A DNA stretch of 21,027 bases, taken from IMG/VR virus record IMGVR_UViG_2690316152_000009; one strand, given 5' to 3'. Source of the DNA: a virus (Duplodnaviria > Heunggongvirae > Uroviricota > Caudoviricetes). Shown one piece after another: positions 2,979 to 15,763 of this stretch. The notes under the pieces are model-generated. The model saw nothing but the letters and a program-made list of their open reading frames with translations. It was not told where the DNA came from and did no database searches. The translations under genes were made by a program, and so were the position numbers. Each line of letters starts with the position of its first letter. The stretch's first letter is position 1.

Positions 2979-3329
2979 ATGAAAAAAAACGCTAATAATC
3001 CATACTCCAAATTTCGTAATGGCGTAGAACGCCATGTACACCACGTCGCTACCAGTGCATCACGTAGTAACAGTCGCTATAACCTGAACGAGACGCACGC
3101 AACACCGGATGGCCACGCTGTAAAACAAATCGGCGAGCATGCCTGGCTGATTGAGAAAGCTGGAATCGTGGTCCACAAATGCCCACGCAATCCGTTTACC
3201 GGAAACCGCATTTTTGCATTGAACTGCGGCGACAATCACTTCGGGCAGGATTTCACATTATACGAAGCACTTCGCACGGTTGATCGTCTGCTTCGCGGGC
3301 AAAGTTTTATTAAACAGGCTGATTTATAA
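2979..3329 (+). CDS. Hypothetical early-region protein
   Basis: 116-aa ORF in early operon, co-oriented; no recognisable motif. Confidence 0.5.
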   Translation: MKKNANNPYSKFRNGVERHVHHVATSASRSNSRYNLNETHATPDGHAVKQIGEHAWLIEKAGIVVHKCPRNPFTGNRIFALNCGDNHFGQDFTLYEALRTVDRLLRGQSFIKQADL

Positions 3330-3339
3330 CAGGTGCTTT

Positions 3340-3618
3340 ATGACCAAAGAGCATGCACAAGGTGTATTTATCCGTTTTATTGATTTTCGCGGTGAACTGT
3401 TATTACGCGCATCAGCCATTGACGGAGTTGTTCCATCCGAAAAAAACGCAGCTACTTACGTTTATCTGAACGGTACGCGCCTGACTGTGGAGCTTCCGTA
3501 CCAGACCGTACGAGAAATCATTAGCGAAGCTGAAAAGGCACGTCAGGTTAATGGCGATGAACCCTATATCGAAATTATTTGTATGGATTCAGAAGCTGAA
3601 ATTCAGAAAGCAGATTAA
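3340..3618 (+). CDS. Hypothetical early-region protein
   Basis: ORF track frame 3280..3618; ATG at 3340 preceded by AGGTG SD is the more plausible start (about 92 aa). Confidence 0.5.
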   Translation: MTKEHAQGVFIRFIDFRGELLLRASAIDGVVPSEKNAATYVYLNGTRLTVELPYQTVREIISEAEKARQVNGDEPYIEIICMDSEAEIQKAD

Positions 3619-3626
3619 AGGGCGTT

Positions 3627-3872
3627 GTGATGGGCAAAGAATATAAAACTCTCATTAACAAAGCACTTGAGCGTTTTTATTTTCGCTTAAGTGCATCAGG
3701 CGCTCATGCTGAACGTGCGGCCCGTGACTCATTGACCAGAGCAATCCGAAGTCTGTATGACGTGGCTTTTTACGCTGATGATCTGGATGCACTTAACGAA
3801 CTTTCCGAGCTGATCTATGCCGCAGAATGCGGGGAACATATTGAACCGTATAAGCTGGGAAATATCGCATGA
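3627..3872 (+). CDS. Hypothetical early-region protein
   Basis: 81-aa ORF (GTG 3627 or ATG 3630); stop overlaps next ATG (ATGA). Confidence 0.5.
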   Translation: MMGKEYKTLINKALERFYFRLSASGAHAERAARDSLTRAIRSLYDVAFYADDLDALNELSELIYAAECGEHIEPYKLGNIA

Positions 3873-3982
3873 GTATATTTATCTCATGGCTTGTTCTGAT
3901 TATTTCGGTGGTCTGCGCCATTGGGATTATGCGAATTATTAATTCAGTAAAAAAGATTGAACGCTTTTTCACTGAAGAATAA
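3869..3982 (+). CDS. Small hydrophobic (single-TM) peptide, 37 aa
   Basis: ATG overlaps upstream stop (ATGA coupling); translation MSIFISWLVLIISVVCAIGIMRIINSVKKIERFFTEE; not in ORF track because it is short. Confidence 0.35.
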   Translation: MSIFISWLVLIISVVCAIGIMRIINSVKKIERFFTEE

Positions 3983-4068
3983 CCGCGCAAATAAGACCCC
4001 AGGTTAAATAAGAAAATGTGAAAACAATCCGCATTCGCGGAGGTATTCGCACACGCCAAGGAGGCGTA

Positions 4069-4272
4069 ATGGCAATTAAGCATTTTCCCGTCGTTCGTTT
4101 CACCTCCAAAGGACGTGAATACGAAGTTGACGAACGCCTGATTACCACAATCGACAAACACCGTTCAGAAAAGGATGCACATCACATCTATCTCACTGAC
4201 GGCACTTACTTTTGCGCCACCAACGTGGTGCAGGTAAATCTTATCAGACAGGTACAGGAGTCACGCAGATGA
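4069..4272 (+). CDS. Hypothetical early-region protein
   Basis: ATG 4069 preceded by AAGGAGG SD (4057-4063); about 67 aa; same frame as ORF-track 4018..4272. Confidence 0.5.
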   Translation: MAIKHFPVVRFTSKGREYEVDERLITTIDKHRSEKDAHHIYLTDGTYFCATNVVQVNLIRQVQESRR

Positions 4273-4514
4273 CCATTCTGGACTACATCGCTGCCAATCC
4301 GGGTTGTAGCGGTGGAGAAATCGCCGCAGCACTGAATACACCAACCACAACCATTAATGCGGAGCTACGCCGTCTCTGGCGCAGCGGTTCAGTCATAAGA
4401 AAAGAGCGCAAAACAGGCGGTCGCTTTTCTTATCAGGTAAACCCGATGCCGTTTGGGTGTAGCAACCCACTAACCCAGATGTTCAACCAGCTACTGAGGG
4501 AAATCAGAGCATGA
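4269..4514 (+). CDS. Small putative winged-helix DNA-binding protein
   Basis: ATG 4269 overlaps upstream stop (ATGA), AGGAG SD 8 nt upstream; about 81 aa; MTILDYIAANPGCSGGEIAAALNTPTTTINAELRRLWRSGSV resembles wHTH regulators. Confidence 0.5.
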   Translation: MTILDYIAANPGCSGGEIAAALNTPTTTINAELRRLWRSGSVIRKERKTGGRFSYQVNPMPFGCSNPLTQMFNQLLREIRA

Positions 4515-4655
4515 GCACCTCCAACTGCCGGAAACCACGTCGGGCTTCAGCAGCTCATCCGGCAGCAAAACAAACTCCATTAATTCCTGTTCCGGGTCTT
4601 TCCTGCACCTTGTGGCGGGAGGCCTTCGCACATCTGTAACAAGAGGATTGCCGCA

Positions 4656-5021
4656 ATGATTCTCGCCAACGACTTTCTTGAATACCTGCTCAACACAGAG
4701 CGTGATCTTGCCGTTCGCGTGCGTGAACGTTATGACATGTACCTGAAATCCCAGCTTGTACCGCAGCTCGCTGACGGAAAGATTGTTATTGATGGTCGCT
4801 ACATGATTGACAGCCACGAGGGAAATTACAGGCTTTACCGCATTGAAGGTGGCACCCCGTCCGTTATTGGCATTTACCAGCGCCCATCCTCTGCAATCGT
4901 CAATGTGATTGCCGACAGCATCCGCATCACACATCGCCATGCCGACACAGAAGACACCGTGCTGGAAATTCAGCGGCTGGCTACAGTCTGCCGCGACACC
5001 CTGAATGGCATGACGAAGTAA
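4656..5021 (+). CDS. Hypothetical protein immediately upstream of gene A
   Basis: 121-aa ORF with AGAGGA SD; co-oriented with A. Confidence 0.5.
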   Translation: MILANDFLEYLLNTERDLAVRVRERYDMYLKSQLVPQLADGKIVIDGRYMIDSHEGNYRLYRIEGGTPSVIGIYQRPSSAIVNVIADSIRITHRHADTEDTVLEIQRLATVCRDTLNGMTK

Positions 5022-5027
5022 ATCACT

Positions 5028-7850
5028 ATGACGGCAGAGTACATCAGGGACTGGCAACAACCGCGCCACGCAGTGGGGCGTGAAGGAACGGGGATCCCCG
5101 CTCCTGAATCCGCGCTTTCCTCCTGGCTGGATGCCTACCGGGCAGAGAACGAGCGCCGCCAGGAAATGGCTGATGCGGCGTTCTCCGCCACGCCGCTGGG
5201 CAACCTGATTAATAAAAGCCTAGACGCACAGGAAAAACAGGACAAAACAATCACACTGGCAGGAGACGCCAGAAAACAGGCACGCGGCGCGGTAGATGAG
5301 GCCATGGCCTCACTGCGCCTGCTGCCGTCCTATCTGCGCGATCCGCTTATTCGCCACCTCTCCTTCCTGCGCAAAAAACAGGAAGCCGATCGTCAGCAAG
5401 GAAAAAACGCCAGGCAGGCAGAACGCTATGCGCGTGGGACCCTGCGCAAAATATTCGAACGTCTGGAGCGCACCGATCACCGCTGGCTGACATCGGGTTA
5501 TCGCTCCCTTGCCGGACGTGAACGCCTGGACGATTTGATTTACCTGCCGCAACTCAACAAACACCAGATACAGACGCTGGCCACCATGACGGCGGCGATG
5601 TTCAGCAGCACCTTCGAAAAACTCTGCGATGGTTTTGGCGCGACTGATGGCGAGCTGACCATGGATGTAACGCTGAAGGCGTATCAGATGCTGGCCCGCA
5701 TGGCGTTACACTTACACGCCATGCCTCCGCATTATGACGCACTGACAACAGACAAAGACCGGAGGCACGAACCGGACACAGAACTGCTGCCGGGCGCAAT
5801 CCTTCGCCTGACCTGTGCGGAATGGTGGAAACGCAAACTGTGGCTGTTACGTTGCGAGTGGAGAGAAGAACAACTCCGCGCCGCCTGTCTAGTTTCCAGA
5901 AAAACATCGCCCTATCTGAGCCAGGACGCGTTAAGCGAGTTTCGCGCACAGCGCGAGAAAACACGCGATTTCCTGAAAAGTTTCATGCTGGAAAATGAAG
6001 ACGGGTTCACGATTGATCTCGAGACGGTGTATTACGCGGGAGTAAGTAACCCGGTTCACCGTAAGGCAGAAATGATGGCCACCATGAAGGGGCTGGAACT
6101 TCTGGCCGAAGCCCGTGGCGACAAAGCGGTGTTTCTGACTGTCACCTGCCCGTCAAAATACCACGCCACAACGGAGAACGGTCATCCGAATCCCAAATGG
6201 AACGGGGCCACAATGCGCGACTCCAGCGATTACCTGGTTAACACGTTTTTTGCGGCGGTCCGCAAAAAACTGAACCGCGACGACCTGCGCTGGTATGGCA
6301 TCCGCACGGTGGAGCCTCATCATGACGGCACCGTGCACTGGCATATGATGGTCTTTGCACATCCGGAAGAAATCGACACCATTGTGTCCCATACCCGCGA
6401 TATTGCCATTCAGGAAGACCGCCACGAGCTGGGCAATGATATTACTCCGCGCTTTAAGGTGGAGTATGTCGACGGCTCAAAAGGCACGCCAACCAGCTAC
6501 ATCGCCACCTACATCGGAAAGAACCTGGACAGCCGCGCCGTGGATGGCATCGACCCGAAAACGGACAAGCCACGCGTGGACCACGAAACCGGAAAATCAA
6601 TGGCCGAGAGCGTGGAACGCGCCATCGGCTGGGCGCGTCTTCACCGCGTCCGCCAGTTCCAGTTCTTTGGTATCCCCTCCCGTCAGGTATGGCGTGAACT
6701 CCGCCGCCTTGCCAGTCAGATGGCCCGCAACCCGGAAGGTCCACAACGTCTGGAAAATGACGCAATGGATGCGGTACTCGCTGCCGCTGATGCCGGGTGT
6801 TTTGCCACCTACATTGAGAAACAGGGTGGCGTACTTGTTCCACGCAAAGACTACCTGATTCGCACCGCCTACGACCTCGCAGAAGAGCTGAACGATTACG
6901 GCGAGCAAAGCGTACAGATTTACGGGATCTGGTCGCCACAAATCGGGGAATCTTCCCGCGTGTGCACGCACCCGGATAACTGGAAGCTGGTAAGACGTAA
7001 ACCGGAAGCGGAAGACAGCGCCCGCGAAAATGGTTTTGACCTTCAGGGCGGCCCTGCCGCCCCTTGGACTCGTGGCAATAACTGTCCCCGTGTACAGGAA
7101 ACGGACAACAACGGGACAGAACAGCCGGAAGAACGGCCAGCACCGTGGCCGCAGCTCCCTGACGGCGTTGAAGTGAACGAATGGATGCGCTCACTGAAAC
7201 GGCACGAACGCCGGGCGCTGATGCGTTCGCTTCGTGACAAACAGGCAAAAAACAGCAGTGATGAAATGCAGAGCTGGACACAGAGCCGCAAACAGCAGCG
7301 GCCTTTGCCTGATAACCACGAATTACTCGCTAAAGAATGGCGGGAGTCTGCTGAATCTCTCGGCCTGCATATCGGTGAACAGCAGATGCAGCACCTGTTA
7401 CGGGGCGGCAGTCTGTACGTTGACGGCAGCATCATTGCACCGCAGGGATTTGAAATTGTACGCAAACCGGATACCCGACCGGACAGCCGGATCACGCAGC
7501 TCTGGCAGCGCCTGAGCCGTAACCACGGCGTAAGCAGCACGGAGATCCGCCATAACCCGGTCGCCAGCTATCTGGAACAGCTGGGGGCATCAGACCCCGA
7601 AGCCGCCGCACGCCTGGCATCCACACTTCAGCAAGACCAGAACACCATGAAAACACCCGTTACCGTGCTTTCTGACATGCTGCGCGCCATCCGCGACGCA
7701 GAGCACGCACAGAGAATCAGTGAAACCACTGAACGCGCCCGCCGCAAAGCAGACCTGCTGCGAGGTGGCCTGACCAGTGGAAACAAAAAACAGACAGAAA
7801 CGGGATTCACAAATCCCGTAAATGAGCAAAAAACGCGCCGCGATATATGA
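5028..7850 (+). CDS. A: Rolling-circle replication initiator endonuclease (P2 gpA family)
   Basis: 940-aa ORF; HUH motif (VHWHMMVFAH) and dual-tyrosine motif (YIATYIGKN) characteristic of phiX174/P2 A-type Rep proteins; start codon may lie downstream (for example ATG 5167); long low-complexity C-terminal extension. Confidence 0.9.
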   Translation: MTAEYIRDWQQPRHAVGREGTGIPAPESALSSWLDAYRAENERRQEMADAAFSATPLGNLINKSLDAQEKQDKTITLAGDARKQARGAVDEAMASLRLLPSYLRDPLIRHLSFLRKKQEADRQQGKNARQAERYARGTLRKIFERLERTDHRWLTSGYRSLAGRERLDDLIYLPQLNKHQIQTLATMTAAMFSSTFEKLCDGFGATDGELTMDVTLKAYQMLARMALHLHAMPPHYDALTTDKDRRHEPDTELLPGAILRLTCAEWWKRKLWLLRCEWREEQLRAACLVSRKTSPYLSQDALSEFRAQREKTRDFLKSFMLENEDGFTIDLETVYYAGVSNPVHRKAEMMATMKGLELLAEARGDKAVFLTVTCPSKYHATTENGHPNPKWNGATMRDSSDYLVNTFFAAVRKKLNRDDLRWYGIRTVEPHHDGTVHWHMMVFAHPEEIDTIVSHTRDIAIQEDRHELGNDITPRFKVEYVDGSKGTPTSYIATYIGKNLDSRAVDGIDPKTDKPRVDHETGKSMAESVERAIGWARLHRVRQFQFFGIPSRQVWRELRRLASQMARNPEGPQRLENDAMDAVLAAADAGCFATYIEKQGGVLVPRKDYLIRTAYDLAEELNDYGEQSVQIYGIWSPQIGESSRVCTHPDNWKLVRRKPEAEDSARENGFDLQGGPAAPWTRGNNCPRVQETDNNGTEQPEERPAPWPQLPDGVEVNEWMRSLKRHERRALMRSLRDKQAKNSSDEMQSWTQSRKQQRPLPDNHELLAKEWRESAESLGLHIGEQQMQHLLRGGSLYVDGSIIAPQGFEIVRKPDTRPDSRITQLWQRLSRNHGVSSTEIRHNPVASYLEQLGASDPEAAARLASTLQQDQNTMKTPVTVLSDMLRAIRDAEHAQRISETTERARRKADLLRGGLTSGNKKQTETGFTNPVNEQKTRRDI

Positions 7851-7895
7851 AGCGCGCATAAAACAGGCAAAAACGGGATTTCAGAATCCCGTAAA
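7785..7895. repeat. Two copies of a ~38-bp element each containing an 8-bp-stem hairpin (ACGGGATT-N4-AATCCCGT) at the 3' end of gene A
   Basis: Copy 1 at 7785-7822 (inside A coding sequence), copy 2 at 7858-7895 (after A stop); hairpins at 7800-7819 and 7873-7892; on the minus strand each is followed by a T-rich run. Confidence 0.5.
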
Positions 7896-7926
7896 CGATT
7901 AATTAATCAACATAAGGAAAAGCGAC

Positions 7927-8328
7927 ATGAAAATTTGTATCGATGACGGCTCCACCAACATCAAGCTGGCATGGACTGAGAACGGCGAACGCCGCAACGC
8001 CATCAGCCCGAACAGCTTCAAGTCGGAATGGTCTGCGCCGTTCGGTGGCACGCAGCCCGCGAACTACATGCTTGATGGCGTGCGCTATGGTTTTGATCCG
8101 GTCAGCGATCGCTTTGTCCAGACAACTGACACGCAATACCAGTACAGCGATGTGAATGTCATTGCCATTCATCACGCGCTGGTCAAATCAGGCATCACGC
8201 CACAGGAGGTGGATGTGGTTGTCACCCTGCCACTGAGCGAGTATTTCGACACAAACGCACAGCCGGACATAGCCAACATCAACCGCAAAAAAAGCCCAGG
8301 ATTCCCGGGGCGGTTCAGAGGAGAGTGA
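7927..8328 (+). pseudogene. ParM/StbA-like actin-family partition ATPase, N-terminal fragment only
   Basis: MKICIDDGSTNIKLAW...ISPNSFK...YSDVNVIAIHHALVKSGI resembles the N-terminal about 125 aa of plasmid ParM/StbA (about 320 aa); reading frame runs into a 22-bp IS terminal repeat and stops. Confidence 0.6.
8296..8317. repeat. Solo 22-bp copy of the IS629-like terminal inverted repeat
   Basis: CCAGGATTCCCGGGGCGGTTCA is identical to 20461-20482 (terminus of the partial IS element); no IS body adjacent. Confidence 0.6.
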
Positions 8329-8330
8329 GA

Positions 8331-8822
8331 ATGCAAATTTCACCGGTTACTCTTCGTGTTGCGAAGGCGTTTATATCCAGACATCACCGACACAATAAAC
8401 CCCCGGTGGGGCATAAATTCAGCATTGGTCTGAGAAATGATGCCGGAGAATTGATAGGTGTGGCGACAGCCGGTAGACCTGTTGCACGACATTTGGACGA
8501 TGGATTAACGCTTGAAGTAAATCGCACATGTACCACAGGAGAACGCAACGCTAACAGCGCACTTTATGGTGCTGTCTGGCGGGCAGCAAAGGCTATGGGT
8601 TATCAACGTTGTATTACGTACACCCAGGCAGATGAATCAGGAGCATCTCTCCGCGCAGCTGGTTTTGTTCGTGTGAAAGAGCTTCCTCCAAGAAAAAGCT
8701 GGGCGGAATCAAGCGTCGCCCTGCGGAGTAAACGCGATCCGGTCGGAAACGGTGGTGTTCCTCGTGTGCTCTGGGAAATCAGGAGAATGAGTACCACTGG
8801 CATTCGCATCAAAGGAGAGTGA
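8331..8822 (+). CDS. Hotspot cargo protein, 163 aa, possibly GNAT-fold (acetyltransferase-like)
   Basis: ATG 8331 preceded by GGAGAG SD; weak by-eye match to GNAT core (segment TTGERNANSALYGAVWRAAKAMGYQRCITYT then LRAAGFVRV); stop TGA lies inside the SD of the next gene. Confidence 0.55.
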   Translation: MQISPVTLRVAKAFISRHHRHNKPPVGHKFSIGLRNDAGELIGVATAGRPVARHLDDGLTLEVNRTCTTGERNANSALYGAVWRAAKAMGYQRCITYTQADESGASLRAAGFVRVKELPPRKSWAESSVALRSKRDPVGNGGVPRVLWEIRRMSTTGIRIKGE

Positions 8823-9091
8823 TATGGCAACTTTGACAAAAAAAGAACAAGCATGGTTGAGCGAATTACAGGACGTTCTTGATCGCTGCCCATCACCGAA
8901 AAAAATTGGTTTTTACACCATTGGCGATAAAAGCATTTACCTGTATGACCTGCGCCGCATGGATGAAATCATGGAGGCTCTTGATAATCGTTCGTCAATG
9001 GATTGGTGTGTTGCTGTCCATGATATGAATGCAGGGTTTGATGAAAAGATTTTGTTCCCCTCATCAGTTGAAAGCACAGCAGGATAAGGAC
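8811..9091 (+). repeat. Direct repeat copy 1 (281 bp) carrying the coupling junction and the whole 87-aa gene
   Basis: Identical to 9497-9777 except one synonymous C/T difference (8889 vs 9575). Confidence 0.9.
8824..9087 (+). CDS. Hotspot cargo protein, 87 aa (copy 1)
   Basis: ATG 2 nt after upstream TGA, SD AAAGGAGAG; MATLTKKEQAWLSELQDVLDRCPSPKK...; no recognised family. Confidence 0.6.
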   Translation: MATLTKKEQAWLSELQDVLDRCPSPKKIGFYTIGDKSIYLYDLRRMDEIMEALDNRSSMDWCVAVHDMNAGFDEKILFPSSVESTAG

Positions 9092-9097
9092 TAACAC

Positions 9098-9508
9098 ATG
9101 ACCACTATTACCAAAGAACGTATTGAATTGTTCATTAAAAATCCGCTTGAAAACGGGCTTACTCGTGACGAACAAATGGAACTGGCACGAATTGCACTGG
9201 CATCGCTGGAAGCAGAGGCAGTTATGTTCTGTATATCAGGACAAAATGTAGATTCAGAAGAACATGTATCAACCAGCAAAGCGGTTGTTGATGCCTGGGT
9301 TGAAGAATGGAATCAGGTTGACGGAAGTCCTGGCGAACCACTGTACAAAACTATGCCACTCTACTATCACGCTGCCTTGCCAGCGCCGGTAGTGCCGGAT
9401 GAAATGTATTGGCAGGATGCGCCAGTTGAAGGCAGCAGCAAAGCGGCTGCATACGCTACAGGCTGGAACGCCTGCCGCGCCGCTATGCTTCATGGGAAAG
9501 GAGAGTGA
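9098..9508 (+). CDS. Hotspot cargo protein, 136 aa, acidic
   Basis: ORF between the two repeat copies; its last codons (KGE-stop) lie in repeat copy 2; no recognised family. Confidence 0.6.
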   Translation: MTTITKERIELFIKNPLENGLTRDEQMELARIALASLEAEAVMFCISGQNVDSEEHVSTSKAVVDAWVEEWNQVDGSPGEPLYKTMPLYYHAALPAPVVPDEMYWQDAPVEGSSKAAAYATGWNACRAAMLHGKGE

Positions 9509-9777
9509 TATGGCAACTTTGACAAAAAAAGAACAAGCATGGTTGAGCGAATTACAGGACGTTCTTGATCGCTGTCCATCACCGAAAAAAATTGGTTTTT
9601 ACACCATTGGCGATAAAAGCATTTACCTGTATGACCTGCGCCGCATGGATGAAATCATGGAGGCTCTTGATAATCGTTCGTCAATGGATTGGTGTGTTGC
9701 TGTCCATGATATGAATGCAGGGTTTGATGAAAAGATTTTGTTCCCCTCATCAGTTGAAAGCACAGCAGGATAAGGAC
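9497..9777 (+). repeat. Direct repeat copy 2 (281 bp)
   Basis: See copy 1; offset 686 bp. Confidence 0.9.
9510..9773 (+). CDS. Hotspot cargo protein, 87 aa (copy 2, identical protein)
   Basis: Identical translation to 8824..9087; the ORF-track ORF 9399..9773 is the same frame read from an upstream in-frame start. Confidence 0.6.
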   Translation: MATLTKKEQAWLSELQDVLDRCPSPKKIGFYTIGDKSIYLYDLRRMDEIMEALDNRSSMDWCVAVHDMNAGFDEKILFPSSVESTAG

Positions 9778-9807
9778 CCAGCAAATATACACAACCTATA
9801 AAACACT

Positions 9808-9834
9808 AAAGCGCCTCAGGGGCGCTTTTTGTTT
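9808..9834 (+). terminator. Rho-independent terminator closing the cargo cassette
   Basis: GC-rich hairpin AGCGCC-tcagg-GGCGCT (9810-9826) followed by TTTTTGTTT. Confidence 0.7.
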
Positions 9835-10359
9835 GCACAAAAGTGCACAAATTTGCACAATTTTTTTGAACGACTTTTTACCCTTCCGGCCCGCATGGCG
9901 GCTGGATCCGTCAAGGATCCGTGCGTGCACAAAAAAACGCGCTTTTTCTGCGCGCAGGTGACGGGGGAACAGCCCGCGTTTCAGGGGGTAAATAGCATTC
10001 CCTGAACGATGTCGCAGAGACACAACAGAATGGCCATATTTCTCACGCTGAGCATGAAAAAGGCGTGAGGGCTTTTGATTTGATGGGGTGAAAGGTAAGG
10101 CCGTCAAAATCGCACTGAGGCAGCGAGAACATACAGTCAACGCGGTGGAATTGCGTAAGAGTCTGACCGTCGATGGTGGCGATAAACTGGAAGGCGTCGT
10201 GAAATTATCTGATTGATACAGGAGCTGGAGAGCCGGGGCATAAATTTTTTATGCCCCGGCGAAGCAGCAGACAAGCGAAGCGCGTCAGCGATACGGCACC
10301 TTGCCGACCATACTTCATAAGTGCAAAATACGAGCAAAGAAATCAATGGAGGCTGTCTT
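9835..10359. other. About 0.5-kb non-coding region, candidate cos/packaging and regulatory region
   Basis: No credible ORF; lies where P2 cos sits (between hotspot and Q); TGCACAA x3 at 10-bp phasing (9834-9860), GGATCCGT x2 (9904-9922), perfect 13-bp-stem palindrome (10232-10260); cos sequence itself not identified. Confidence 0.3.
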
Positions 10360-10884
10360 ATGGTCATTAATTACAAGCAGTTAAGAGAAAAACGGGAGCA
10401 GGTAAAGGAGAGCTTTCGCCGCAATGAAGATCTGACCCCGCTTGTACGCCTTGCCCAGGGCATTGTTGATGCTTATGAAATCTCGCTGGAGCTGCCATCA
10501 CAGACCTGGACAGATAGCGACGGTAATCGCCAGCATTACGTTTCATGCGGACTGGAAGCAGCCGAAGGATTTCGCAGAATGCCTTTATCCCAGATCCCTG
10601 CCGCTACCCCCAAAGCATGGGGCAGCAATGATGAGCGAAAACTGACTTTTAGTATTGAAACGGTGGTTGACGACACACCTGGCGAAGTCGCGTTCGTACA
10701 CACTCCTGTTTCGATCGCAATGTATAACGATGAAATACAGGTTCGCGTTAATAATAATATCGTGCCACTTAAAGAAGGTAATTCACCCTACACCACCGTT
10801 TGTGAAGCCATTCAATATTACGTTCTCTCTGAAATTGATAATCTCAAGCCTGACGGCACCCAGAAAATGGTTCAACTCTGGTAA
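10360..10884 (+). CDS. Stand-alone hotspot ORF, 174 aa, unknown function
   Basis: ATG 10360 with GGAGG SD 7 nt upstream; followed by bidirectional terminator; no recognised motif. Confidence 0.55.
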   Translation: MVINYKQLREKREQVKESFRRNEDLTPLVRLAQGIVDAYEISLELPSQTWTDSDGNRQHYVSCGLEAAEGFRRMPLSQIPAATPKAWGSNDERKLTFSIETVVDDTPGEVAFVHTPVSIAMYNDEIQVRVNNNIVPLKEGNSPYTTVCEAIQYYVLSEIDNLKPDGTQKMVQLW

Positions 10885-10885
10885 A

Positions 10886-10917
10886 AAGGACAGCCCCATC
10901 ACGGGGCTGTTTTTTCA
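10886..10917. terminator. Bidirectional intrinsic terminator between the hotspot ORF and portal gene Q
   Basis: Hairpin CAGCCCC-atcac-GGGGCTG (10891-10909) flanked by AAAAA upstream and TTTTTT downstream; overlaps the last codons of Q. Confidence 0.6.
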
Positions 10918-11945
10918 TCAAGAAGAGCATAAGAGTTAAAACGGATCACCTCTTCGCCAAGCCAGTCATTGATGTGCTTCATAGCCTCCATGACGGGCAT
11001 CAGCTCGTTAATTGCGTAAACCCGCGCTGCCTTCTCCACATCGCCAAACGCACTTTTTTCGCCCGGCATCGCCCCCATCAGTTGCGGCGGAACGCGGTGC
11101 GCAGCCAGCACATCATCACGGGATGCCGCCTTAACATTCATGAATTCATCTTTTGCGGTGATCTGCTGGAACGGCAAAATTTGCACCCCCTCTTTGCCCC
11201 CGTTGGGCGCATGAATGAGCACGTTTTTAAACGCACCACCACCACGTGCCCCCTGTAGCGTTTCTTTCAGGGAGTCCATGCTTTCGCGGTTTACCTGCGC
11301 TGCACCGATGTAGATGATGCACCCGGCGTGGGATCCGTTGTCGTAGTACAGTTTTCTGAACATGTCCGCCGAATGAGAAAGGCTGGCCGAGAGTAATGCG
11401 CCAAGATATTCCGGCATGCCGTAGATTTCCTGGTTAATATCCGGATTCATCAGGTGGCACACTTTGCCAGGACGAAACTGAAACGCGTCCTTGCCATCCT
11501 GCACATACCACCATGATTCAAGATCGCTTCCGCGTCGCATGTATTTCGCCAGGGCGTGCCGTAATTTAAGCGGTTCGCCGAGCATATTGCTTCGAAGCTC
11601 AAGGAATGCGTTACCGAACACAAACCAGTCCAGCGCCAGCGCCGAGAAATCCTGCCGGGAAAGCAGCGGGTGCGGGATGTAGCAACCGAGTAATACATTG
11701 CGCTTAAAGTAAAGCGCAGACTGATGCCAGGACGTTTGCCGGGCAGCTCTTGCCAGACCGTACCAGTCCACCGGGGTTTCATACCACCGCCCGTTATCAG
11801 CACAGTACATATTGTCCAGCAGGTCATGCCCGGTCAGGCGATAAGGACCATCAAATGTGAATGCACTGAGCGATGATTCTTTCCTGAGCGCATCAGCGAG
11901 ATCAATGCGTGAACTCATGCGCACTTTTTTATTTTTTCTGCTCAT
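10899..11945 (-). CDS. Q: Portal protein (P2 gpQ family)
   Basis: 348-aa ORF; size, position and P2-like order (Q-P divergent from O); recognised by similarity to P2-type portal from memory. Confidence 0.85.
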   Translation of the reverse strand: MSRKNKKVRMSSRIDLADALRKESSLSAFTFDGPYRLTGHDLLDNMYCADNGRWYETPVDWYGLARAARQTSWHQSALYFKRNVLLGCYIPHPLLSRQDFSALALDWFVFGNAFLELRSNMLGEPLKLRHALAKYMRRGSDLESWWYVQDGKDAFQFRPGKVCHLMNPDINQEIYGMPEYLGALLSASLSHSADMFRKLYYDNGSHAGCIIYIGAAQVNRESMDSLKETLQGARGGGAFKNVLIHAPNGGKEGVQILPFQQITAKDEFMNVKAASRDDVLAAHRVPPQLMGAMPGEKSAFGDVEKAARVYAINELMPVMEAMKHINDWLGEEVIRFNSYALLDEKTAP

Positions 11946-13696
11946 CAGAACTCCATAACTGTGAAACGCTCGTTTTCTCCTTCGCCGCCAATTGGTTCGT
12001 TAATGACAGCAAGCATGGTTGCCCACGCAAGGTCGCCGTGGCTGATCCCCCTCGCGCGGTCCGTTTCGTAAGTGATAAAGCCGCCCGGTGTTTTCACCTT
12101 ACGCACGGCGTTAAAGGCTGCGACCAGCTCGCGTTCGGCGCGATCGTATTCCCACCGCCCGGCACGCATTATTTGCAGCATTTTCAGTACCAGCGACCGT
12201 TTTGATGACAGCGTGAAGGTGTACGGAATAGCAGCAGGGAAAAACCGTTTCACTATCTGATAAACAGCCTCCCCGTTCCCGCCCGTCACATCAATGCCGA
12301 TGTGTTCCACGTTGTAGCGACACGTGAACTCTTCAATGACTCTGGCCTGTTCTTCAAACTCCAGCCCCTGAACGCGTCGCGTCTCCACCGTTCGAAAACG
12401 GCCACCAGGAACAGACGGAGGAACCACCACGGACACAGCGCCGCTGTCGCCGTTGCCACTGCTGCCGTTTGCGTCATACCCAATCCATACCGGACGATTC
12501 CCCATCGGGCGGGGAGCAAAAGGTTTCCAGTCTTTCCAGTCGTCGTATCCGTCAACACCACAGCCAATCAGGATATTCAGGTTAAATGCCGATTCCCCTT
12601 CGCGGACAAACTCACACATATAGAGATTGAGGAACTCGTCTTCGGTGTTTTCATCACGAATTTCATCAATATCGGTGTGTTTCCAGCCGTGATTAACCAC
12701 ATCTTCCAGCGTGACAATTTGCCGCCACGTCCGGTCAGGGCAGATAAGCCCGTTATGCAGCGTTTTCCAGTCCACAGAAAAACGCTGGCGTTTATGCGTG
12801 GCCTTTTTCTCGTTCCAGCGGTCGCCGTTCCAGTAGGCGTATGCCTCGTGCGTTTCGGTGGATGGCGTGGAGAAGTAGGTGCGCCGCAGTCCGCTGAGGG
12901 TTGCCATAGCGCCAGCCACCTTGCGCAGTTCAGCAAAGCGACTGACCCAGAAAAATTCATCAAAATAAAAATTGCCCGTATAGGACTGCGCCGACGCAGC
13001 AGAAGTGCCGAGAAAATGCAGCTCTGCGCCGTTGGAGAGGATGATTTTATCGCCCCCTTTCAGCTCCACATCAACTTCAGCCGCGGCCTTCTGAATAATG
13101 CTTTTAAACTGGAACGCCTGACGACGCGACGCAGACAAAAAAATCTGGTTACGCTGGTAAGGTTGCGCCACATCGTCACGCAGCGCCATCAGCAGTGCTT
13201 CCTGTGCAAAATACCAGGTCGCGCCAATCTGTCGGGATTTCAGGATCATCCTGTTACGTATCCCGGCTTCCCTGCAAAGGGTCAGGGAGTCAAACCAGCC
13301 CCGCTGATGCCACTCCAGCCTGCTGATGATTTTTTCCCGCAGTGCGACAATCTGTTCCGGCGTGAAATGATTTTTGAGTTTTTTCGCCCGGCCTTTCTTT
13401 CCTGTGGCCGTCGCATCCGGCTGGCCATCATGCATTTTTTTAAGCTGCCGGGTCAGCAGGTCTATTTCCTTAAAGTCACCGCCTGTTTTATTCTGTTTTT
13501 CAGTAAGCTGGATGAGGCGCGCATCGATGGACTGCGTGACACGCTGCACGGGTGGCGTTTCATCCCACTGGTCGCGTTTTTTCCACGCATAAATCGTGTT
13601 CGGGTTTATTCCCATCAGACGTGATATTTCTGCGGGCGGATAACCCTGCCAGTAAAGTTGCCGCGCACGCTGGCGCACAAAAGCGTCCTGAATCAT
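11945..13696 (-). CDS. P: Terminase large (ATPase) subunit (P2 gpP family)
   Basis: 583-aa ORF; ILKSRQIGATWYF ATPase motif typical of P2-type terminases; N-terminal HTH-like region. Confidence 0.9.
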   Translation of the reverse strand: MIQDAFVRQRARQLYWQGYPPAEISRLMGINPNTIYAWKKRDQWDETPPVQRVTQSIDARLIQLTEKQNKTGGDFKEIDLLTRQLKKMHDGQPDATATGKKGRAKKLKNHFTPEQIVALREKIISRLEWHQRGWFDSLTLCREAGIRNRMILKSRQIGATWYFAQEALLMALRDDVAQPYQRNQIFLSASRRQAFQFKSIIQKAAAEVDVELKGGDKIILSNGAELHFLGTSAASAQSYTGNFYFDEFFWVSRFAELRKVAGAMATLSGLRRTYFSTPSTETHEAYAYWNGDRWNEKKATHKRQRFSVDWKTLHNGLICPDRTWRQIVTLEDVVNHGWKHTDIDEIRDENTEDEFLNLYMCEFVREGESAFNLNILIGCGVDGYDDWKDWKPFAPRPMGNRPVWIGYDANGSSGNGDSGAVSVVVPPSVPGGRFRTVETRRVQGLEFEEQARVIEEFTCRYNVEHIGIDVTGGNGEAVYQIVKRFFPAAIPYTFTLSSKRSLVLKMLQIMRAGRWEYDRAERELVAAFNAVRKVKTPGGFITYETDRARGISHGDLAWATMLAVINEPIGGEGENERFTVMEF

Positions 13697-13850
13697 TGCT
13701 CCCCCTGAGTAATTACAGGAAGATTACCCGCGCGCGAAACCGTTCTCCTTACCCCCCTGTTCTGGCCGTTTTCTTACAACAAAAGCCCTTTGTATCAGCC
13801 TGTTACGCTTTGCCATCATGACTGAAGAACCAGTCAGAGGGGCAAAAACT
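13697..13850. promoter_or_regulatory. Divergent late-promoter region between P and O
   Basis: Positional inference from the P2 map only; no activator-site consensus could be confirmed by eye. Confidence 0.3.
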
Positions 13851-14687
13851 ATGGCTAATGAAAAAAAGACATCCCGCAAAAAGTTTCGCGTGGCTGTCTC
13901 CGGATCAACTGTTGATGGCCGCGAAATCAGCCCGGTACATCTGCGTGAAGCCGCCGAGAACTTCAACCCGGATGTTTACGCTGCCCGCGTGAACGTTGAG
14001 CACTATCTCTCGCCATGCCCGTCAAGCGAATTTTCCGCAATGGGCGATGTCACCGCGCTGAGTACGGAAGATATTACGGAAGGCCCGCTGGCCGGACGTA
14101 CTGCGCTGTATGCAGAAATCGAACCGACCGAGCGCATGAAGCAGCTTGTCGCTGACGGCAAGAAAATCTATTCCAGTATCGAACTGCACCCGCAGTTCTC
14201 CGTTAACGGGCGCGCCTATCTGGTCGGGCTGGCGATGACCGACACCCCGGCAAGCCTGGGCACTGAGCGCCTGAAATTCACGGCACAGCAACGTCAGGCG
14301 GTGATGACGTTCAACAGTATCCAGGGTGAAGCGCCGCTTATCTCCGAAGCCATTGAGTCTGAAATCATCGAAATGGCAGAACAACGCCAGGAAGAAGGCA
14401 CCCAGTGGTTTAACCGCGTAATGGGGATTATTGGCCGTGGCCGCAAAGCGGATGACGCCAGTTTTTCCCGTATTCAGGAAGCGGTGGAAGGCGTCGCAAC
14501 GTCACAGGCCGACATTATCGACCGTTTTAATGTGCTGGAAGCCCGCCATCAGCAGGACCGCCAGAAAATCACGTCACTGACCACAGAGCTGACAGCATTG
14601 AAGGAAAAACTGCGCACGCAGGACGGCGATCCGCAGAACCGCTTCACCGCAACGGGCGCAGCCTCCGACCAGCTGGCTGACTTCTGA
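13851..14687 (+). CDS. O: Capsid scaffolding protein (P2 gpO family)
   Basis: ATG 13851 (MANEKK...); KKFRVAVSGSTVDGREIS, YLVGLAMTDTPASLGTERLKF resemble P2 gpO from memory. Confidence 0.85.
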   Translation: MANEKKTSRKKFRVAVSGSTVDGREISPVHLREAAENFNPDVYAARVNVEHYLSPCPSSEFSAMGDVTALSTEDITEGPLAGRTALYAEIEPTERMKQLVADGKKIYSSIELHPQFSVNGRAYLVGLAMTDTPASLGTERLKFTAQQRQAVMTFNSIQGEAPLISEAIESEIIEMAEQRQEEGTQWFNRVMGIIGRGRKADDASFSRIQEAVEGVATSQADIIDRFNVLEARHQQDRQKITSLTTELTALKEKLRTQDGDPQNRFTATGAASDQLADF

Positions 14688-14710
14688 TAAGACAAAGGAG
14701 CAAATTTTTT

Positions 14711-15763
14711 ATGAATCTGGTGATGTCAGATATTACCCGCAACAAGCTGGGTTGCTATATAGCGAAGCAGGCGTCGCTTAACAATATCCCGGTATCTGCA
14801 CTGGTATCGCGATTTACCGTGGAACCCGCGGTGCAGCAGCGTTTTGAAAACGCCTCAAAGGAAAGTACCGAATTTACGAAAAGAATTAACGTGATCGGCG
14901 TGACCGACCAGAAAGGCGAAAAAATCCTCCTGGACACCACCGGGCCAATTGCGCGCACGAATAGCAGTTATGACGGCATCAAACGCCGTAACCCGAATAA
15001 CGTGATCGATATGAAGTCTCGTCAGTACCAGTGCGAACAGGTGAACTACGATACCTTTATTTCGTACCCACAGCTTGATACCTGGGCGGCCCACAGCGAT
15101 TTTCAGTCCCGTATCAGTACACAGATCGCCCGGCAGGTAGCGCTTGATCGCATCATGATTGGCTTTAACGGCACATCCCACGCCTACGAGTCTGATTTTC
15201 ACACCAACAAGCTGCTTCAGGACGTTAACGTGGGCTGGCTGGAGCACATCAGAACCGATGCCAGCGAGCGCGTAATGAATGACGTGACGCTGACCTCCCG
15301 CAACATGGACAACACTGTGGCGCACGCGGGTAAGTATGCGAATGCCGATGCTCTGGTACAGGATGCGCGCTCATCCCTGCTGGATGAATGGCACAAGGAA
15401 GCTGACGACCTCGTGGTGATTATGGGGCGCAACCTGTTTAACTCGCTGCGTCTGCCCGTGCTGAACAGCATCAGCGGCCAGAATCCCAATGCGGAATTAC
15501 TTGCCGGGCAGCTCATCCTGTCATCGCGCACCATTGGCGGGCTGGGCGTGTTCCTTGCGCCGTTCTTCCCGGATGCAACGATGCTTATCACCTCGTTCAA
15601 CAACCTGTCGATTTACTGGCAGAAAGGTTCAATGCGTCGCCTGATGAAAGACGAGCCGGAATACAACCGCATCGCCACCTACCAGTCCATCAATGACGCT
15701 TATGTCGTTGAAGACTATGGCAAGTGCGCGATGGTCACTGGCCTGAAGTTCGCCGACAGCTAA
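14711..15763 (+). CDS. N: Major capsid protein (P2 gpN family)
   Basis: 350-aa ORF with AAGGAG SD; motifs FTVEP, GFNG, VGWL, DYVVEDY as in P2 gpN. Confidence 0.9.
   Translation: MNLVMSDITRNKLGCYIAKQASLNNIPVSALVSRFTVEPAVQQRFENASKESTEFTKRINVIGVTDQKGEKILLDTTGPIARTNSSYDGIKRRNPNNVIDMKSRQYQCEQVNYDTFISYPQLDTWAAHSDFQSRISTQIARQVALDRIMIGFNGTSHAYESDFHTNKLLQDVNVGWLEHIRTDASERVMNDVTLTSRNMDNTVAHAGKYANADALVQDARSSLLDEWHKEADDLVVIMGRNLFNSLRLPVLNSISGQNPNAELLAGQLILSSRTIGGLGVFLAPFFPDATMLITSFNNLSIYWQKGSMRRLMKDEPEYNRIATYQSINDAYVVEDYGKCAMVTGLKFADS

What the first reader, a model, noticed from the sequence alone, without database searches (positions are those of the whole stretch)
8318..9834. Translationally coupled four-gene cargo cassette in the A-to-Q hotspot: candidate undescribed accessory or anti-phage module
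This sits where P2 carries tin/old and where P2-like prophages are known to carry exchangeable defence cargo. It holds four co-oriented ORFs (163 aa, 87 aa, 136 aa, 87 aa) that are not phage core genes. Every junction has the upstream TGA stop embedded in an AGGAGAGTGA Shine-Dalgarno followed 1-2 nt later by ATG, which implies obligate co-expression, and the unit ends in a strong terminator. The first protein aligns weakly by eye to a GNAT-fold core, which would be compatible with an acetyltransferase-type toxin or effector; that is unproven. I recognise none of the four as a known defence protein.
Basis: partly seen in the sequence, partly recalled or inferred. Interest (0 to 1): 0.8.

Follow-up and report, generated by a model that had tools for sequence, protein, structure and literature searches.

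The report
Mosaic prophage cargo with Mom-like enzyme
The "four-gene cassette" is a patchwork of small genes borrowed from lambda-like phages and stitched into a P2-like prophage at a reusable junction sequence; only one gene has a predictable activity, a relative of the phage Mu enzyme that modifies DNA to escape restriction, so it looks like phage counter-defence cargo, not a new anti-phage system.

Summary
The ORFs, the terminator and the GGAGAGTGA junctions exist, but the cassette holds three different genes, not four. The two 87-aa genes are copies inside a 281-nt direct repeat with one mismatch, and the 87→136 junction lacks the motif.

The window is a P88-like (P2-family) prophage, and the region lies in the known gpA–gpQ variable locus.

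- **Changes from relatives:** compared with PhiR44_2 and E. coli 190693, a 1.6-kb deletion has truncated parM and removed parR. A 686-bp insertion has added a chimeric 136-aa Ea22/EaA-like ORF and the second 87-aa copy.
- **The junction:** it is the conserved 3' end of lambdoid ea22 genes (…GGCATTCGCATCAAAGGAGAGTGA). It precedes at least 8 unrelated gene families, so it marks module shuffling, not an obligate system.
- **Gene 1:** this is an XF1762-family GNAT whose closest solved structure is Mu Mom. It keeps equivalents of Mom R111 and S124 but lacks the HTH-like insertion and R151. Relatives sit beside, or are fused to, DNA methyltransferases.
- **The 87-aa protein:** it has a confident predicted fold with no known relative, and it occurs independently of the GNAT.
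- **Defence search:** PADLOC found nothing.

The best reading is lambdoid accessory genes led by a probable DNA-modifying counter-defence enzyme. It is moderately interesting and not a new defence system.

The parts
7927..8328 (+). Truncated parM pseudogene. It has 123 codons of ParM N-terminal domain, then 10 codons from a 22-bp filler and the junction, and it ends at the junction TGA.
   Evidence: Pfam StbA_N E=1.8e-63, profile positions 1-123 of 158. Homology to intact parM of PhiR44_2 and P88 stops at 8292. RefSeq annotates the same remnant in E. coli 190693 as a pseudogene.
8293..8314 (.). A 22-bp filler at the joint of the 1.6-kb deletion. The deletion removed the parM 3' part, parR (Plasmid_stab_B), a ClpX-type zinc-finger gene and most of an Ea22-like fragment.
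   Evidence: blastn against PhiR44_2: window 7501-8292 = L001 1202-1993, and window 8315-9091 = L001 3597-4373. Alignment. Pfam hits for the deleted genes.
8315..8333 (+). Junction 1: TCAGAGGAGAGTGAGAATG. It is the remnant 3' end of an Ea22-like gene and carries a Shine-Dalgarno sequence, a TGA stop and the ATG of the GNAT gene.
   Evidence: In PhiR44_2 and Wanchaivirus PDP110P2 the same sequence ends an Ea22-like ORF (…NIGIKGE*) directly before the GNAT gene.
8331..8822 (+). XF1762-family, Mom-like GNAT gene (163 aa). The conserved core is residues 1-150. The tail …TTGIRIKGE* is encoded by the junction.
   Evidence: NCBIfam NF045478 E=5e-61, 204.7 bits against a cut-off of 50. phrog_1384 'Mom-like DNA modification protein' E=4e-42. 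AF2 pLDDT 86. Foldseek top hit is Mu Mom 8bv8, E=4e-9, TM 0.73.
8796..8826 (+). Junction 2: GGCATTCGCATCAAAGGAGAGTGATATG. It is identical to the 3' end of lambda ea22.
   Evidence: Lambda ea22 ends …GCTGGCATTCGCATCAAAGGAGAGTGA. 41 IMG/VR hits carry this extended junction.
8824..9087 (+). orf87, copy 1 (87 aa). It belongs to phrog_1714, function unknown.
8811..9091 (+). First copy of the 281-nt direct repeat.
   Evidence: the repeat finder family D1. The single difference is 8889 C versus 9575 T.
9098..9508 (+). Chimeric 136-aa ORF. Its N-terminus matches an 'EaA'-annotated lambdoid protein and its C-terminus matches an 'Ea22'-annotated lambdoid protein. It ends …GKGE*.
   Evidence: tblastn: residues 1-44 are 93% identical to L003 4622-4753, and the full length is 66% identical to L003 3906-4343. 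blastn overlap of the two source segments at 9190-9231. PHROGs 5117, 60 and 660. No Pfam hit.
9497..9777 (+). Second copy of the 281-nt direct repeat. It includes junction 3 (AAAGGAGAGTGATATG).
9510..9773 (+). orf87, copy 2. The protein is identical to copy 1.
9808..9834 (+). Intrinsic terminator that closes the unit: AAAGCGCC-TCA-GGGGCGCTTT followed by TTGTTTG.
   Evidence: Terminator scan: 9 pairs, 5 of them G-C, loop of 3. It is the first convincing + strand terminator after gpA.

Best explanation
This is not one four-component system. It is a mosaic of independent accessory genes of lambdoid origin in the gpA–gpQ cargo locus of a P88-like (P2-family) prophage.

**How it was built (shown by comparison)**
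1. The ancestral locus was parM–parR–ClpX-ZnF–Ea22-fragment–GNAT–orf87, as in PhiR44_2. The Ea22-fragment–GNAT–orf87 part has lambdoid early-region relatives.
2. A 1.6-kb deletion fused parM codon 123 to the junction in front of the GNAT gene.
3. A 686-bp piece (a chimeric EaA-N::Ea22-C ORF plus a second orf87) entered by homologous recombination with a lambdoid Ea22–orf87–EaA array.

**The junction**
- The genes are joined by the conserved ea22 3'-end sequence …GGCATTCGCATCAAAGGAGAGTGA(N1-2)ATG.
- I infer that it gives Shine-Dalgarno/stop-restart coupling and also provides the homology at which gene-sized modules are swapped.

**Function (inferred)**
- The only gene with a predictable activity is the XF1762-family GNAT, a compact relative of Mu Mom.
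- It most likely transfers an acyl or aminoacyl group onto nucleic acid, probably phage DNA. That would protect the DNA from host nucleases.
- It would be made during lytic growth by read-through from the early operon through gpA.
- orf87 and the 136-aa chimera are lambdoid early-region proteins of unknown role. The chimera and the second orf87 copy may be neutral by-products of recombination.
For: **Architecture**
- The breakpoints against PhiR44_2, P88, E. coli 190693 and a lambdoid phage are mapped.
- E. coli 190693 is identical across the finding region but lacks the 686-bp insert.
- At SNP 8889, copy 1 carries the lambdoid allele and copy 2 the P88-type allele. This fits a crossover within the first 78 bp of the repeat.
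- Wanchaivirus PDP110P2, an HK97-like phage, shares exactly 8315-8832 at 99.4% identity. That is the GNAT gene from junction to junction, flanked there by a true Ead/Ea22 protein (PF13935, E=3e-41).
- GC content is 41-52% in the cassette against 56-62% in gpA.

**Junction**
- Lambda ea22 ends with the same 24 nt.
- 41 of 123 IMG/VR hits carry the extended …GIRIKGE* form. Their downstream genes fall into at least 8 unrelated families.
- Dydecka 2020 noted a '+GE' end on all Ea22 proteins, of unknown significance (PMC7093339).

**GNAT gene**
- NCBIfam XF1762, E=5e-61.
- The top structural match is Mu Mom 8bv8.
- Profile alignment pairs Mom H58/R111/N121/S124 with H19/R65/N73/S76. H19 and R65 are invariant and N73 and S76 nearly invariant across a family with 3861 representatives at 50% identity.
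- R111 is specific to Mom and is not a general GNAT residue (10.1101/861617).
- Homologues lie beside DNA methyltransferase or replication genes in Burkholderia phi1026b and an M. abscessus prophage. One lies directly after DNA polymerase A in an environmental phage.
- Fusions exist to a D12 N6-adenine methyltransferase, a C5-cytosine methyltransferase and YodL/LPD28 polyvalent-protein domains.

**Independence of the genes**
- 32 phage records carry the GNAT and 79 carry orf87. PhiR44_2 is the only record seen in both lists. The orf87 list showed only 40 of its 79 records, so overlap among the other 39 was not checked.

**Transcription**
- There is no + strand terminator between gpA and the cassette.
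Against: - No biochemical data exist for any XF1762-family protein (literature search returned nothing).
- This protein scores below Pfam's Mom threshold (22.4 against 27.1 bits).
- It lacks Mom's essential HTH-like insertion. It has no equivalent of R151, Y59 or Y159 in the alignment, which is low-confidence for the C-terminal half. A different substrate, such as tRNA, protein or a small molecule, is therefore possible.
- The promoter is unknown. A par-type promoter upstream of parM could express the genes in lysogens.
- The XF1762–orf87 pair is kept in all P88-like loci examined, and in two lineages that lost parM by independent deletions. This could mean a functional link, or only tight physical linkage.
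- The parM remnant ends in frame at the junction TGA. That could reflect selection for coupling, or a one-in-three chance.
Confidence: 0.6

Rival explanations
1. One reading: a dedicated, obligately co-expressed multi-gene anti-phage defence (or abortive-infection) module. It would be carried as exchangeable cargo at the P2 tin/old position and expressed in the lysogen.
For: - The location is a validated defence hotspot (PMC9122126).
- The genes are tightly packed, co-oriented and closed by a terminator.
- An XF1762 homologue lies next to Kiwa (KwaAB) in a Klebsiella prophage.
Against: - PADLOC gives no hit for any of the proteins.
- The components do not co-occur elsewhere.
- Two of the four ORFs come from a recent duplication and insertion missing in the closest relative.
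- The junction is generic to lambdoid exo-xis arrays.
- orf87 homologues occur in phage records of roughly 55-140 kb whose names suggest virulent phage groups (my reading of the names, not checked) as well as in P22-like temperate phages.
- The Rousset 2022 supplementary tables list this arrangement as a locus of the partition-system type (StbA + Plasmid_stab_B + hypotheticals). About a quarter of P2-like loci carry partition genes, not defence genes.
Confidence: 0.07
2. A GNAT toxin–antitoxin pair. The 163-aa protein would acetylate aminoacyl-tRNA as TacT, AtaT or ItaT do, and the 87-aa protein would be its antitoxin. The pair would stabilise the prophage, replacing the lost partition system.
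For: - The protein has a GNAT fold.
- A small gene sits immediately downstream and is translationally coupled.
- The pair is retained where parMR has been deleted, in two independent lineages.
Against: - The nearest structure is Mom, not a GNAT toxin.
- The canonical acetyl-CoA motif R/Q-x-x-G-x-G/A is replaced by R72-N-A-N-S-A77 (sequence).
- There is no RHH or DUF1778 antitoxin. orf87 has no Pfam hit and no DNA-binding fold match.
- The GNAT occurs without orf87 in Kapi1, Wanchaivirus, ZF40, phi1026b and mycobacterial prophages.
- orf87 occurs without the GNAT in 78 of the 79 phage records that carry it, as far as the listed rows show.
Confidence: 0.06
3. The GNAT modifies a protein, tRNA or small molecule, not DNA. 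Together with the Ea22-like genes it would tune host physiology or the lysis–lysogeny decision, as reported for lambdoid exo-xis genes.
For: - The cassette's relatives lie in lambdoid early accessory regions, among Ead/Ea22-like genes.
- Lambda and Stx-phage Ea22 favours lysogeny (PMC7093339).
- Mom's DNA-binding HTH-like insertion and R151 are missing.
Against: - Recurrent adjacency and fusion to DNA methyltransferases and replication genes across phyla.
- The Mom-specific Arg and Ser are retained.
- The 136-aa ORF has no detectable similarity to lambda Ea22 beyond the KGE tail.
Confidence: 0.22

Closest known systems
Phage Mu Mom (Pfam PF25680; PDB 8bv8). It is a GNAT that transfers glycine from Gly-tRNA(Gly) to N6 of adenine in dsDNA, giving 6-NcmdA and restriction evasion (PMC13219725).
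   Same: - It is the best structural match (E=4e-9, TM 0.73).
- Both have a GNAT core without the glycine-rich acetyl-CoA motif.
- Equivalents of H58, the Mom-specific R111 (ELNR versus EVNR), N121 and S124 are conserved.
- Both are phage-borne, single-gene enzymes.
- In ZF40 the homologue sits after the lysis genes, much as mom sits at the late end of Mu.
   Different: - It is 163 aa against 241 aa, and has no N-terminal extension.
- Mom's essential HTH-like insertion (residues 175-209) is replaced by a shorter, conserved 26-residue insert (119-144; W124, G139 and G141 invariant among close relatives).
- R151, Y59 and Y159 are not matched.
- It scores below the Pfam Mom threshold.
- There is no com-like regulator.
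- It lies in early or replication-type contexts.
- Its activity has not been tested.
XF1762 family (NCBIfam NF045478) / phrog_1384 'Mom-like DNA modification protein'
   Same: It is a full-length, high-scoring member (204.7 bits against a cut-off of 50). The identical protein is annotated in RefSeq E. coli genomes (WP_001167293).
   Different: Nothing differs; it is a member. The family has no characterised representative.
Lambdoid exo-xis / ea-region gene arrays (Ead/Ea22-like, EaA, ST64T orf-87)
   Same: - orf87, the 136-aa ORF and the junction all have their closest relatives there.
- The genes end in the same '+GE' tail noted for Ea22.
- The genes are gene-sized mosaic modules.
   Different: - Here the array sits in a P2-family prophage between gpA and the portal gene, behind a decayed parMR locus.
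- The 136-aa ORF is a chimera of two such genes.
- orf87 is duplicated.
P2 tin/old and other gpA–gpQ hotspot cargo (Rousset 2022)
   Same: It has the same chromosomal position and the same pattern of exchangeable cargo.
   Different: - No component resembles a known defence protein.
- The ancestral cargo here is a ParMR partition system plus lambdoid accessory genes.

Membership tests
XF1762 family (NCBIfam NF045478) | Whole-protein HMM score above the curated cut-off | tested here: met
   204.7 bits against a cut-off of 50, E=5e-61, profile positions 2-130 of 143
Mu Mom family (Pfam PF25680) | Pfam Mom HMM at or above the gathering score | tested here: not met
   22.4 bits against 27.1, and only profile positions 3-124 of 202 are matched. 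Several relatives do pass.
Mu Mom family (Pfam PF25680) | GNAT fold with Mom as the nearest structural neighbour | tested here: met
   AF2 model pLDDT 86. Foldseek rank 1 and 2 are 8bv8 chains, E=4e-9, TMq 0.73, ahead of all generic GNATs.
Mu Mom family (Pfam PF25680) | Essential, Mom-specific Arg (R111) and Ser (S124) | tested here: met
   hhalign pairs R111 with R65 and S124 with S76. R65 is invariant and S76 at least 90% conserved across the divergent family.
Mu Mom family (Pfam PF25680) | Essential R151, plus Y59 and Y159 | tested here: not met
   The aligned positions are S103, R20 and L107/R108. The C-terminal half of the alignment has low confidence.
Mu Mom family (Pfam PF25680) | HTH-like insertion (~175-209) between β6 and β7, required for activity | tested here: not met
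   A 26-residue conserved insert (119-144) lies at the same topological position. It contains only one short helix and has lower pLDDT.
Mu Mom family (Pfam PF25680) | Gly-tRNA-dependent modification of adenine in dsDNA | not testable with these tools
   Needs biochemistry or nucleoside mass spectrometry.
Canonical acetyl-CoA GNAT / GNAT toxin–antitoxin (TacAT, AtaRT) | Acetyl-CoA pyrophosphate-binding motif R/Q-x-x-G-x-G/A after β4 | tested here: not met
   The sequence at that position is R72-N-A-N-S-A77. The motif definition is from established GNAT literature.
Canonical acetyl-CoA GNAT / GNAT toxin–antitoxin (TacAT, AtaRT) | A conserved adjacent antitoxin partner (RHH/DUF1778) | tested here: not met
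   The upstream gene is a parM remnant. orf87 has no Pfam, PDB or fold match and is distributed independently of the GNAT.
Known anti-phage defence systems (PADLOC-DB 2.0) | An HMM match of any component | tested here: not met
   No family matched any of 5 proteins at E≤0.1.
Multi-gene system (any kind) | The components co-occur across unrelated genomes | tested here: not met
   The GNAT occurs without orf87 in Kapi1, Wanchaivirus, ZF40, phi1026b and an M. abscessus prophage. orf87 follows at least 4 different upstream genes.
Ead/Ea22-like (Pfam PF13935), for the 136-aa ORF | A Pfam match, or similarity to lambda Ea22 | tested here: not met
   No Pfam hit. BLASTP against lambda Ea22 gives E=1.1, with only the KGE tail shared. 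It is related to ORFs that depositors labelled Ea22 or EaA.
ParM (plasmid segregation actin) | Intact N- and C-terminal domains | tested here: not met
   Only StbA_N positions 1-123 of 158 remain, and the C-terminal domain and parR are deleted.

The most novel reading that the evidence does not exclude
The XF1762 family would be a minimal Mom-type enzyme that installs a nucleic-acid acyl or aminoacyl modification not yet described. It would work without Mom's HTH-like insertion, often alongside or fused to DNA methyltransferases, as a pan-phylum phage counter-defence. The family has about 3,900 clusters at 50% identity, and the E. coli and Mycobacterium prophage versions are 55% identical. Separately, the ea22-type GGAGAGTGA junction would be a dedicated module-exchange linker, which would explain the unexplained '+GE' end of Ea22 proteins.
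Probability: 0.3. Interest if true: 0.7.

Novelty: new member of a known kind. Interest (0 to 1): 0.33.

Why it matters
- **For hotspot mining:** position in a defence hotspot plus tight translational coupling does not make a defence system. Here the coupling signal is a recombination linker shared by unrelated lambdoid genes, and half of the "system" is a recent duplication.
- **A candidate for experiment:** the XF1762 family is large, unusually conserved and uncharacterised. It keeps Mom's distinctive catalytic residues and repeatedly associates with DNA methyltransferases. With Mom's tRNA-dependent chemistry now solved (2026), this compact variant is a cheap target for discovering another DNA modification or anti-restriction mechanism.
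- **The '+GE' motif:** the analysis also suggests that the puzzling '+GE' C-terminus of Ea22 proteins is a nucleotide-level feature, not a protein motif.

Tried and rejected
- **Assembly artefact for the 87–136–87 repeat: rejected.** The exact arrangement is in at least 24 contigs from independent assemblies, in prophages 98.3-100% identical to the window. No complete E. coli genome of 5,426 has it collinear.
- **Sequence searches against PDB: uninformative.** A single-sequence search and a 37-sequence profile found nothing for the GNAT. Only the fold search linked it to Mom. PDB sequence searches for orf87 and the 136-aa ORF also found nothing.
- **PADLOC:** no hits.
- **Rfam on 7500-10900:** no hits at E≤1.
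- **P2 cos 19-mer (sequence recalled from memory):** absent, even with 3 mismatches allowed.
- **Promoter scan:** no σ70-like site on the + strand upstream of the cassette. By eye there is only a weak TTCAGA-16-ATTAAT candidate at 7880-7907, so I make no promoter claim.
- **Literature search for 'XF1762':** no papers.
- **IMG/VR junction scan:** the pattern has only 15 specified bases, so by my estimate many hits are chance. I interpreted only the 41 hits with the extended …GIRIKGE* junction.
- **orf87 as a Com-like regulator of the GNAT: rejected.** It has no zinc-finger cysteines, lies downstream of the GNAT, and is distributed independently of it.
Full report
**1. What is in the sequence**

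The window is a P2-family prophage of the P88 type (Xuanwuvirus).
- It carries an integrase at the left end, a CI-like HTH protein, gpA at 5028-7850 (+), and the portal gene at 10899-11945 (-) followed by terminase and capsid genes.
- The finding lies between gpA and the portal gene. Rousset et al. 2022 describe this cos-proximal locus as a hotspot that holds tin/old in P2. About a quarter of P2-like phages carry a plasmid-partition system there (PMC9122126).

The four ORFs exist as described:

| ORF | Coordinates | Length |
|---|---|---|
| 1 | 8331-8822 | 163 aa |
| 2 | 8824-9087 | 87 aa |
| 3 | 9098-9508 | 136 aa |
| 4 | 9510-9773 | 87 aa |

- A good intrinsic terminator follows at 9808-9828.
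- GGAGAGTGA occurs at 8320, 8814 and 9500, each 1-2 nt before an ATG. The window has 4 copies against 0.03 expected by chance.

Three points differ from the finding:
- ORFs 2 and 4 are one gene present twice, inside a 281-nt direct repeat (8811-9091 / 9497-9777) with a single mismatch.
- The 87→136 junction is TAAGGACTAACACATG and lacks the motif.
- The TGA of the first junction ends a truncated parM (7927-8328; StbA_N positions 1-123 of 158).

**2. How the region was assembled**

PhiR44_2 and many E. coli prophages carry gpA–parM–parR–ClpX-type zinc finger–104-aa ORF–GNAT–orf87. The supplementary tables of Rousset 2022 list this arrangement with the same RefSeq protein accessions.

Compared with that arrangement, the window shows two changes:
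- **Deletion.** It lacks 1,603 bp, from parM codon 123 to within a few bases of the junction in front of the GNAT gene. A 22-bp filler sits at the joint.
- **Insertion.** It has an extra 686 bp carrying the 136-aa ORF and a second orf87.

Further comparisons support this history:
- E. coli 190693 is 100% identical across the queried region (window 7800-10300). It has the deletion but not the insertion. Over a longer stretch it is 97.3-99.4% identical.
- Strain PO06021 has a different parM deletion, so parMR was lost more than once.
- In a lambdoid phage (ON470583) the order is "Ea22"–orf87–"EaA". The 136-aa ORF is EaA N-terminus (93% identity over residues 1-44) joined to Ea22 C-terminus. The join falls in a 42-bp segment that both genes share.
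- This is what results if a 686-bp Ea22C–orf87–EaAN circle, or an unequal-crossover product, recombines into the resident orf87.
- The single SNP fits this model. Copy 1 carries the lambdoid allele (C) and copy 2 the P88-type allele (T). That places the crossover in the first 78 bp of the repeat. This rests on one SNP.

The arrangement is real:
- The exact 136-aa protein is indexed in 102 blocks of the assembly collection.
- The 24 contigs read reduce to five non-redundant places, all with the same gene order, in prophages 98.3-100% identical to the window.
- No complete E. coli genome has it collinear.

The cassette has 41-52% GC against 56-62% for gpA, which fits a foreign origin.

**3. The junction is a lambdoid linker, not a mark of a system**

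- Lambda ea22 itself ends …GCTGGCATTCGCATCAAAGGAGAGTGA (…AGIRIKGE*). The GNAT gene in the window ends with the same 24 nt (…TTGIRIKGE*).
- In the XF1762 family alignment the conserved core stops at about residue 150 and the tail is variable. The tail is therefore junction-derived.
- Wanchaivirus PDP110P2 (HK97-like) shares exactly window 8315-8832 at 99.4% identity, which is the GNAT gene from junction to junction. There it is flanked by a true Ead/Ea22 protein and an unrelated 187-aa gene.
- An IMG/VR scan for AAAGGAGAGTGA(N1-2)ATG returned 123 matches, some expected by chance. Of these, 41 carry the extended …GIRIKGE* junction.
  - Their upstream genes are mostly Ea22-like.
  - Their downstream genes fall into at least 8 unrelated families.
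  - orf87 follows at least four different upstream genes.
- Dydecka et al. 2020 reported that all Ea22 proteins end in "+GE", of unknown significance (PMC7093339).

I infer that this tail is the translation of a nucleotide-level element. The element supplies a Shine-Dalgarno sequence and a stop-restart site for the next gene, and it supplies homology for swapping gene-sized modules. Translational coupling here says nothing about functional partnership.

**4. The proteins**

*GNAT (163 aa)*
- **Family.** NCBIfam XF1762 family, E=5e-61. phrog_1384 "Mom-like DNA modification protein", E=4e-42. Pfam Mom is below threshold at 22.4 against 27.1 bits.
- **Size and conservation.**
  - There are 5,662 clusters at 90% identity.
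  - There are 3,861 representatives at 50% identity, of which 626 score E≤1e-30.
  - The M. abscessus prophage version is 55% identical.
- **Structure.**
  - The AF2 model has pLDDT 86 and a GNAT topology.
  - The best PDB match is Mu Mom 8bv8 (E=4e-9, TM 0.73), ahead of generic GNATs.
- **Catalytic residues that match.**
  - Profile-profile alignment pairs Mom H58, R111, N121 and S124 with H19, R65, N73 and S76.
  - H19 and R65 are invariant and N73 and S76 nearly so in a divergent family alignment.
  - R111 and S124 are essential in Mom, and R111 is Mom-specific (PMC13219725; 10.1101/861617).
- **Differences from Mom.**
  - Mom's essential HTH-like insertion (175-209) is replaced by a shorter conserved 26-residue insert.
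  - R151, Y59 and Y159 have no match, although the C-terminal half of the alignment has low confidence.
  - The canonical acetyl-CoA motif is absent, as it is in Mom (RNANSA).
- **Genomic context.**
  - Homologues overlap or adjoin DNA methyltransferase genes in Burkholderia phi1026b and an M. abscessus prophage.
  - One directly follows DNA polymerase A in an environmental phage.
  - One follows the lysis genes in ZF40.
  - Others lie in ea or nin-type regions of lambdoid and P22-like phages.
- **Fusions.** The domain is found fused to a D12 N6-adenine methyltransferase, a C5-cytosine methyltransferase, YodL/LPD28 polyvalent-protein domains, DUF6884 and serine recombinases.

Taken together, this points to a nucleic-acid-directed, probably DNA-directed, transferase used by phages. 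The chemistry is unknown.

*orf87*
- phrog_1714, function unknown.
- 143 clusters, all Enterobacterales.
- 79 phage records carry it. They include P22-like ST64T "orf-87" and several larger phages of about 55-140 kb that I take from their names to be virulent types (not checked).
- The AF2 model is confident (pLDDT 90) but has no fold match.

*136-aa ORF*
- It hits only PHROG families of unknown function.
- It has no Pfam hit and no similarity to lambda Ea22 beyond KGE.

PADLOC found nothing for any of the proteins.

**5. Mechanism and rivals**

*Best-supported model (confidence about 0.6 overall)*
- The architecture is well supported. The DNA-modification function is an inference.
- The region is a set of independent lambdoid accessory genes in the P88-type cargo locus.
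- It is probably transcribed by read-through from the early operon, because no + strand terminator lies between gpA and the cassette. This is inferred, and the promoter was not found.
- The GNAT acts as a Mom-like modifier that helps phage DNA evade host nucleases.
- The chimera and the second orf87 copy may be neutral.

*Rivals*

| Rival | Confidence | Main reason |
|---|---|---|
| Four-gene defence system | ~0.07 | Components do not co-occur; no PADLOC hit |
| GNAT toxin–antitoxin pair | ~0.06 | No antitoxin-like partner; partners are distributed independently; nearest structure is Mom |
| Non-DNA substrate, or a role in the lysogeny decision | ~0.22 | Kept open by the missing HTH-like insertion |

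**6. Novelty and verdict**

Every gene belongs to a catalogued family, the locus is a known hotspot, and the ancestral arrangement is already listed in a published table. The claimed new anti-phage module is not supported.

Two things are worth carrying forward:
- the XF1762 family as an attractive uncharacterised Mom-like enzyme;
- the ea22-type junction as an explanation for the "+GE" tail.

Interest is about 0.33. Novelty: new member of a known kind.

Noticed in passing
window 8796-8826; L015 (lambda) ea22 3' end; L016-L135: The '+GE' C-terminal tripeptide reported on all Ea22 proteins, 'significance unknown' (PMC7093339), is encoded by a conserved junction, …GGCATTCGCATCAAAGGAGAGTGA(N1-2)ATG. 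Lambda ea22, the XF1762 GNAT gene and other ORFs share it. It precedes at least 8 unrelated downstream gene families. It looks like a Shine-Dalgarno/stop-restart element and recombination linker, not a protein motif.
   Followed up: partly
window 7784-7825 and 7857-7898: Two 42-nt direct repeats (81% identical) each contain a 20-nt palindrome, ACGGGATT-N4-AATCCCGT. They straddle the gpA stop codon, just upstream of the parM start. They may be a parC/ParR-binding remnant or bidirectional hairpins. parR is deleted in this prophage, so any par promoter here would be unrepressed.
   Followed up: no
window 10321-10884 (+): A 174-187-aa ORF (phrog_5091, E=1.8e-67, unknown function, no Pfam hit) is conserved next to the portal gene in several relatives (PhiR44_2, E. 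coli 190693, L006-L010). It lies outside the terminator-bounded cassette.
   Followed up: no
L005 (E. coli PO06021) compared with window 8255-8345: A second, independent deletion of parM–parR has different breakpoints. It also ends within the Ea22-like fragment upstream of the GNAT gene. The partition module is lost repeatedly while GNAT–orf87 is kept.
   Followed up: partly
L136-L139 (Klebsiella prophage): An XF1762 homologue (80% identical) lies at the end of a replication/nin-type gene block. A Kiwa defence operon (KwaA/KwaB) follows immediately on the opposite strand, and an 87-aa ORF lies nearby.
   Followed up: no
P0384, P0430, P0440, P0437: There are multi-domain proteins in which an XF1762-type domain is fused to a Dam-like N6-adenine methyltransferase, a C5-cytosine methyltransferase, YodL+LPD28 polyvalent-protein domains, or DUF6884. 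I did not check whether these are true fusions or gene-calling merges.
   Followed up: partly
L007 (GCA_958323765.1, CATTLO010000002.1): This contig is 100% identical to window 3098-15508, so it is probably the source, or a clone of the source, of the window.
   Followed up: no
window 19592-19600: A fourth GGAGAGTGA lies inside a 409-aa + strand ORF (18651-19880), not at a gene end. It is probably unrelated to the junctions.
   Followed up: no
window 8293-8314: The 22-bp filler at the deletion joint contains a small palindrome (CCCAGGATTCCCGGG). On the - strand it reads as a terminator-like hairpin followed by a T-run. Its origin is unknown.
   Followed up: no
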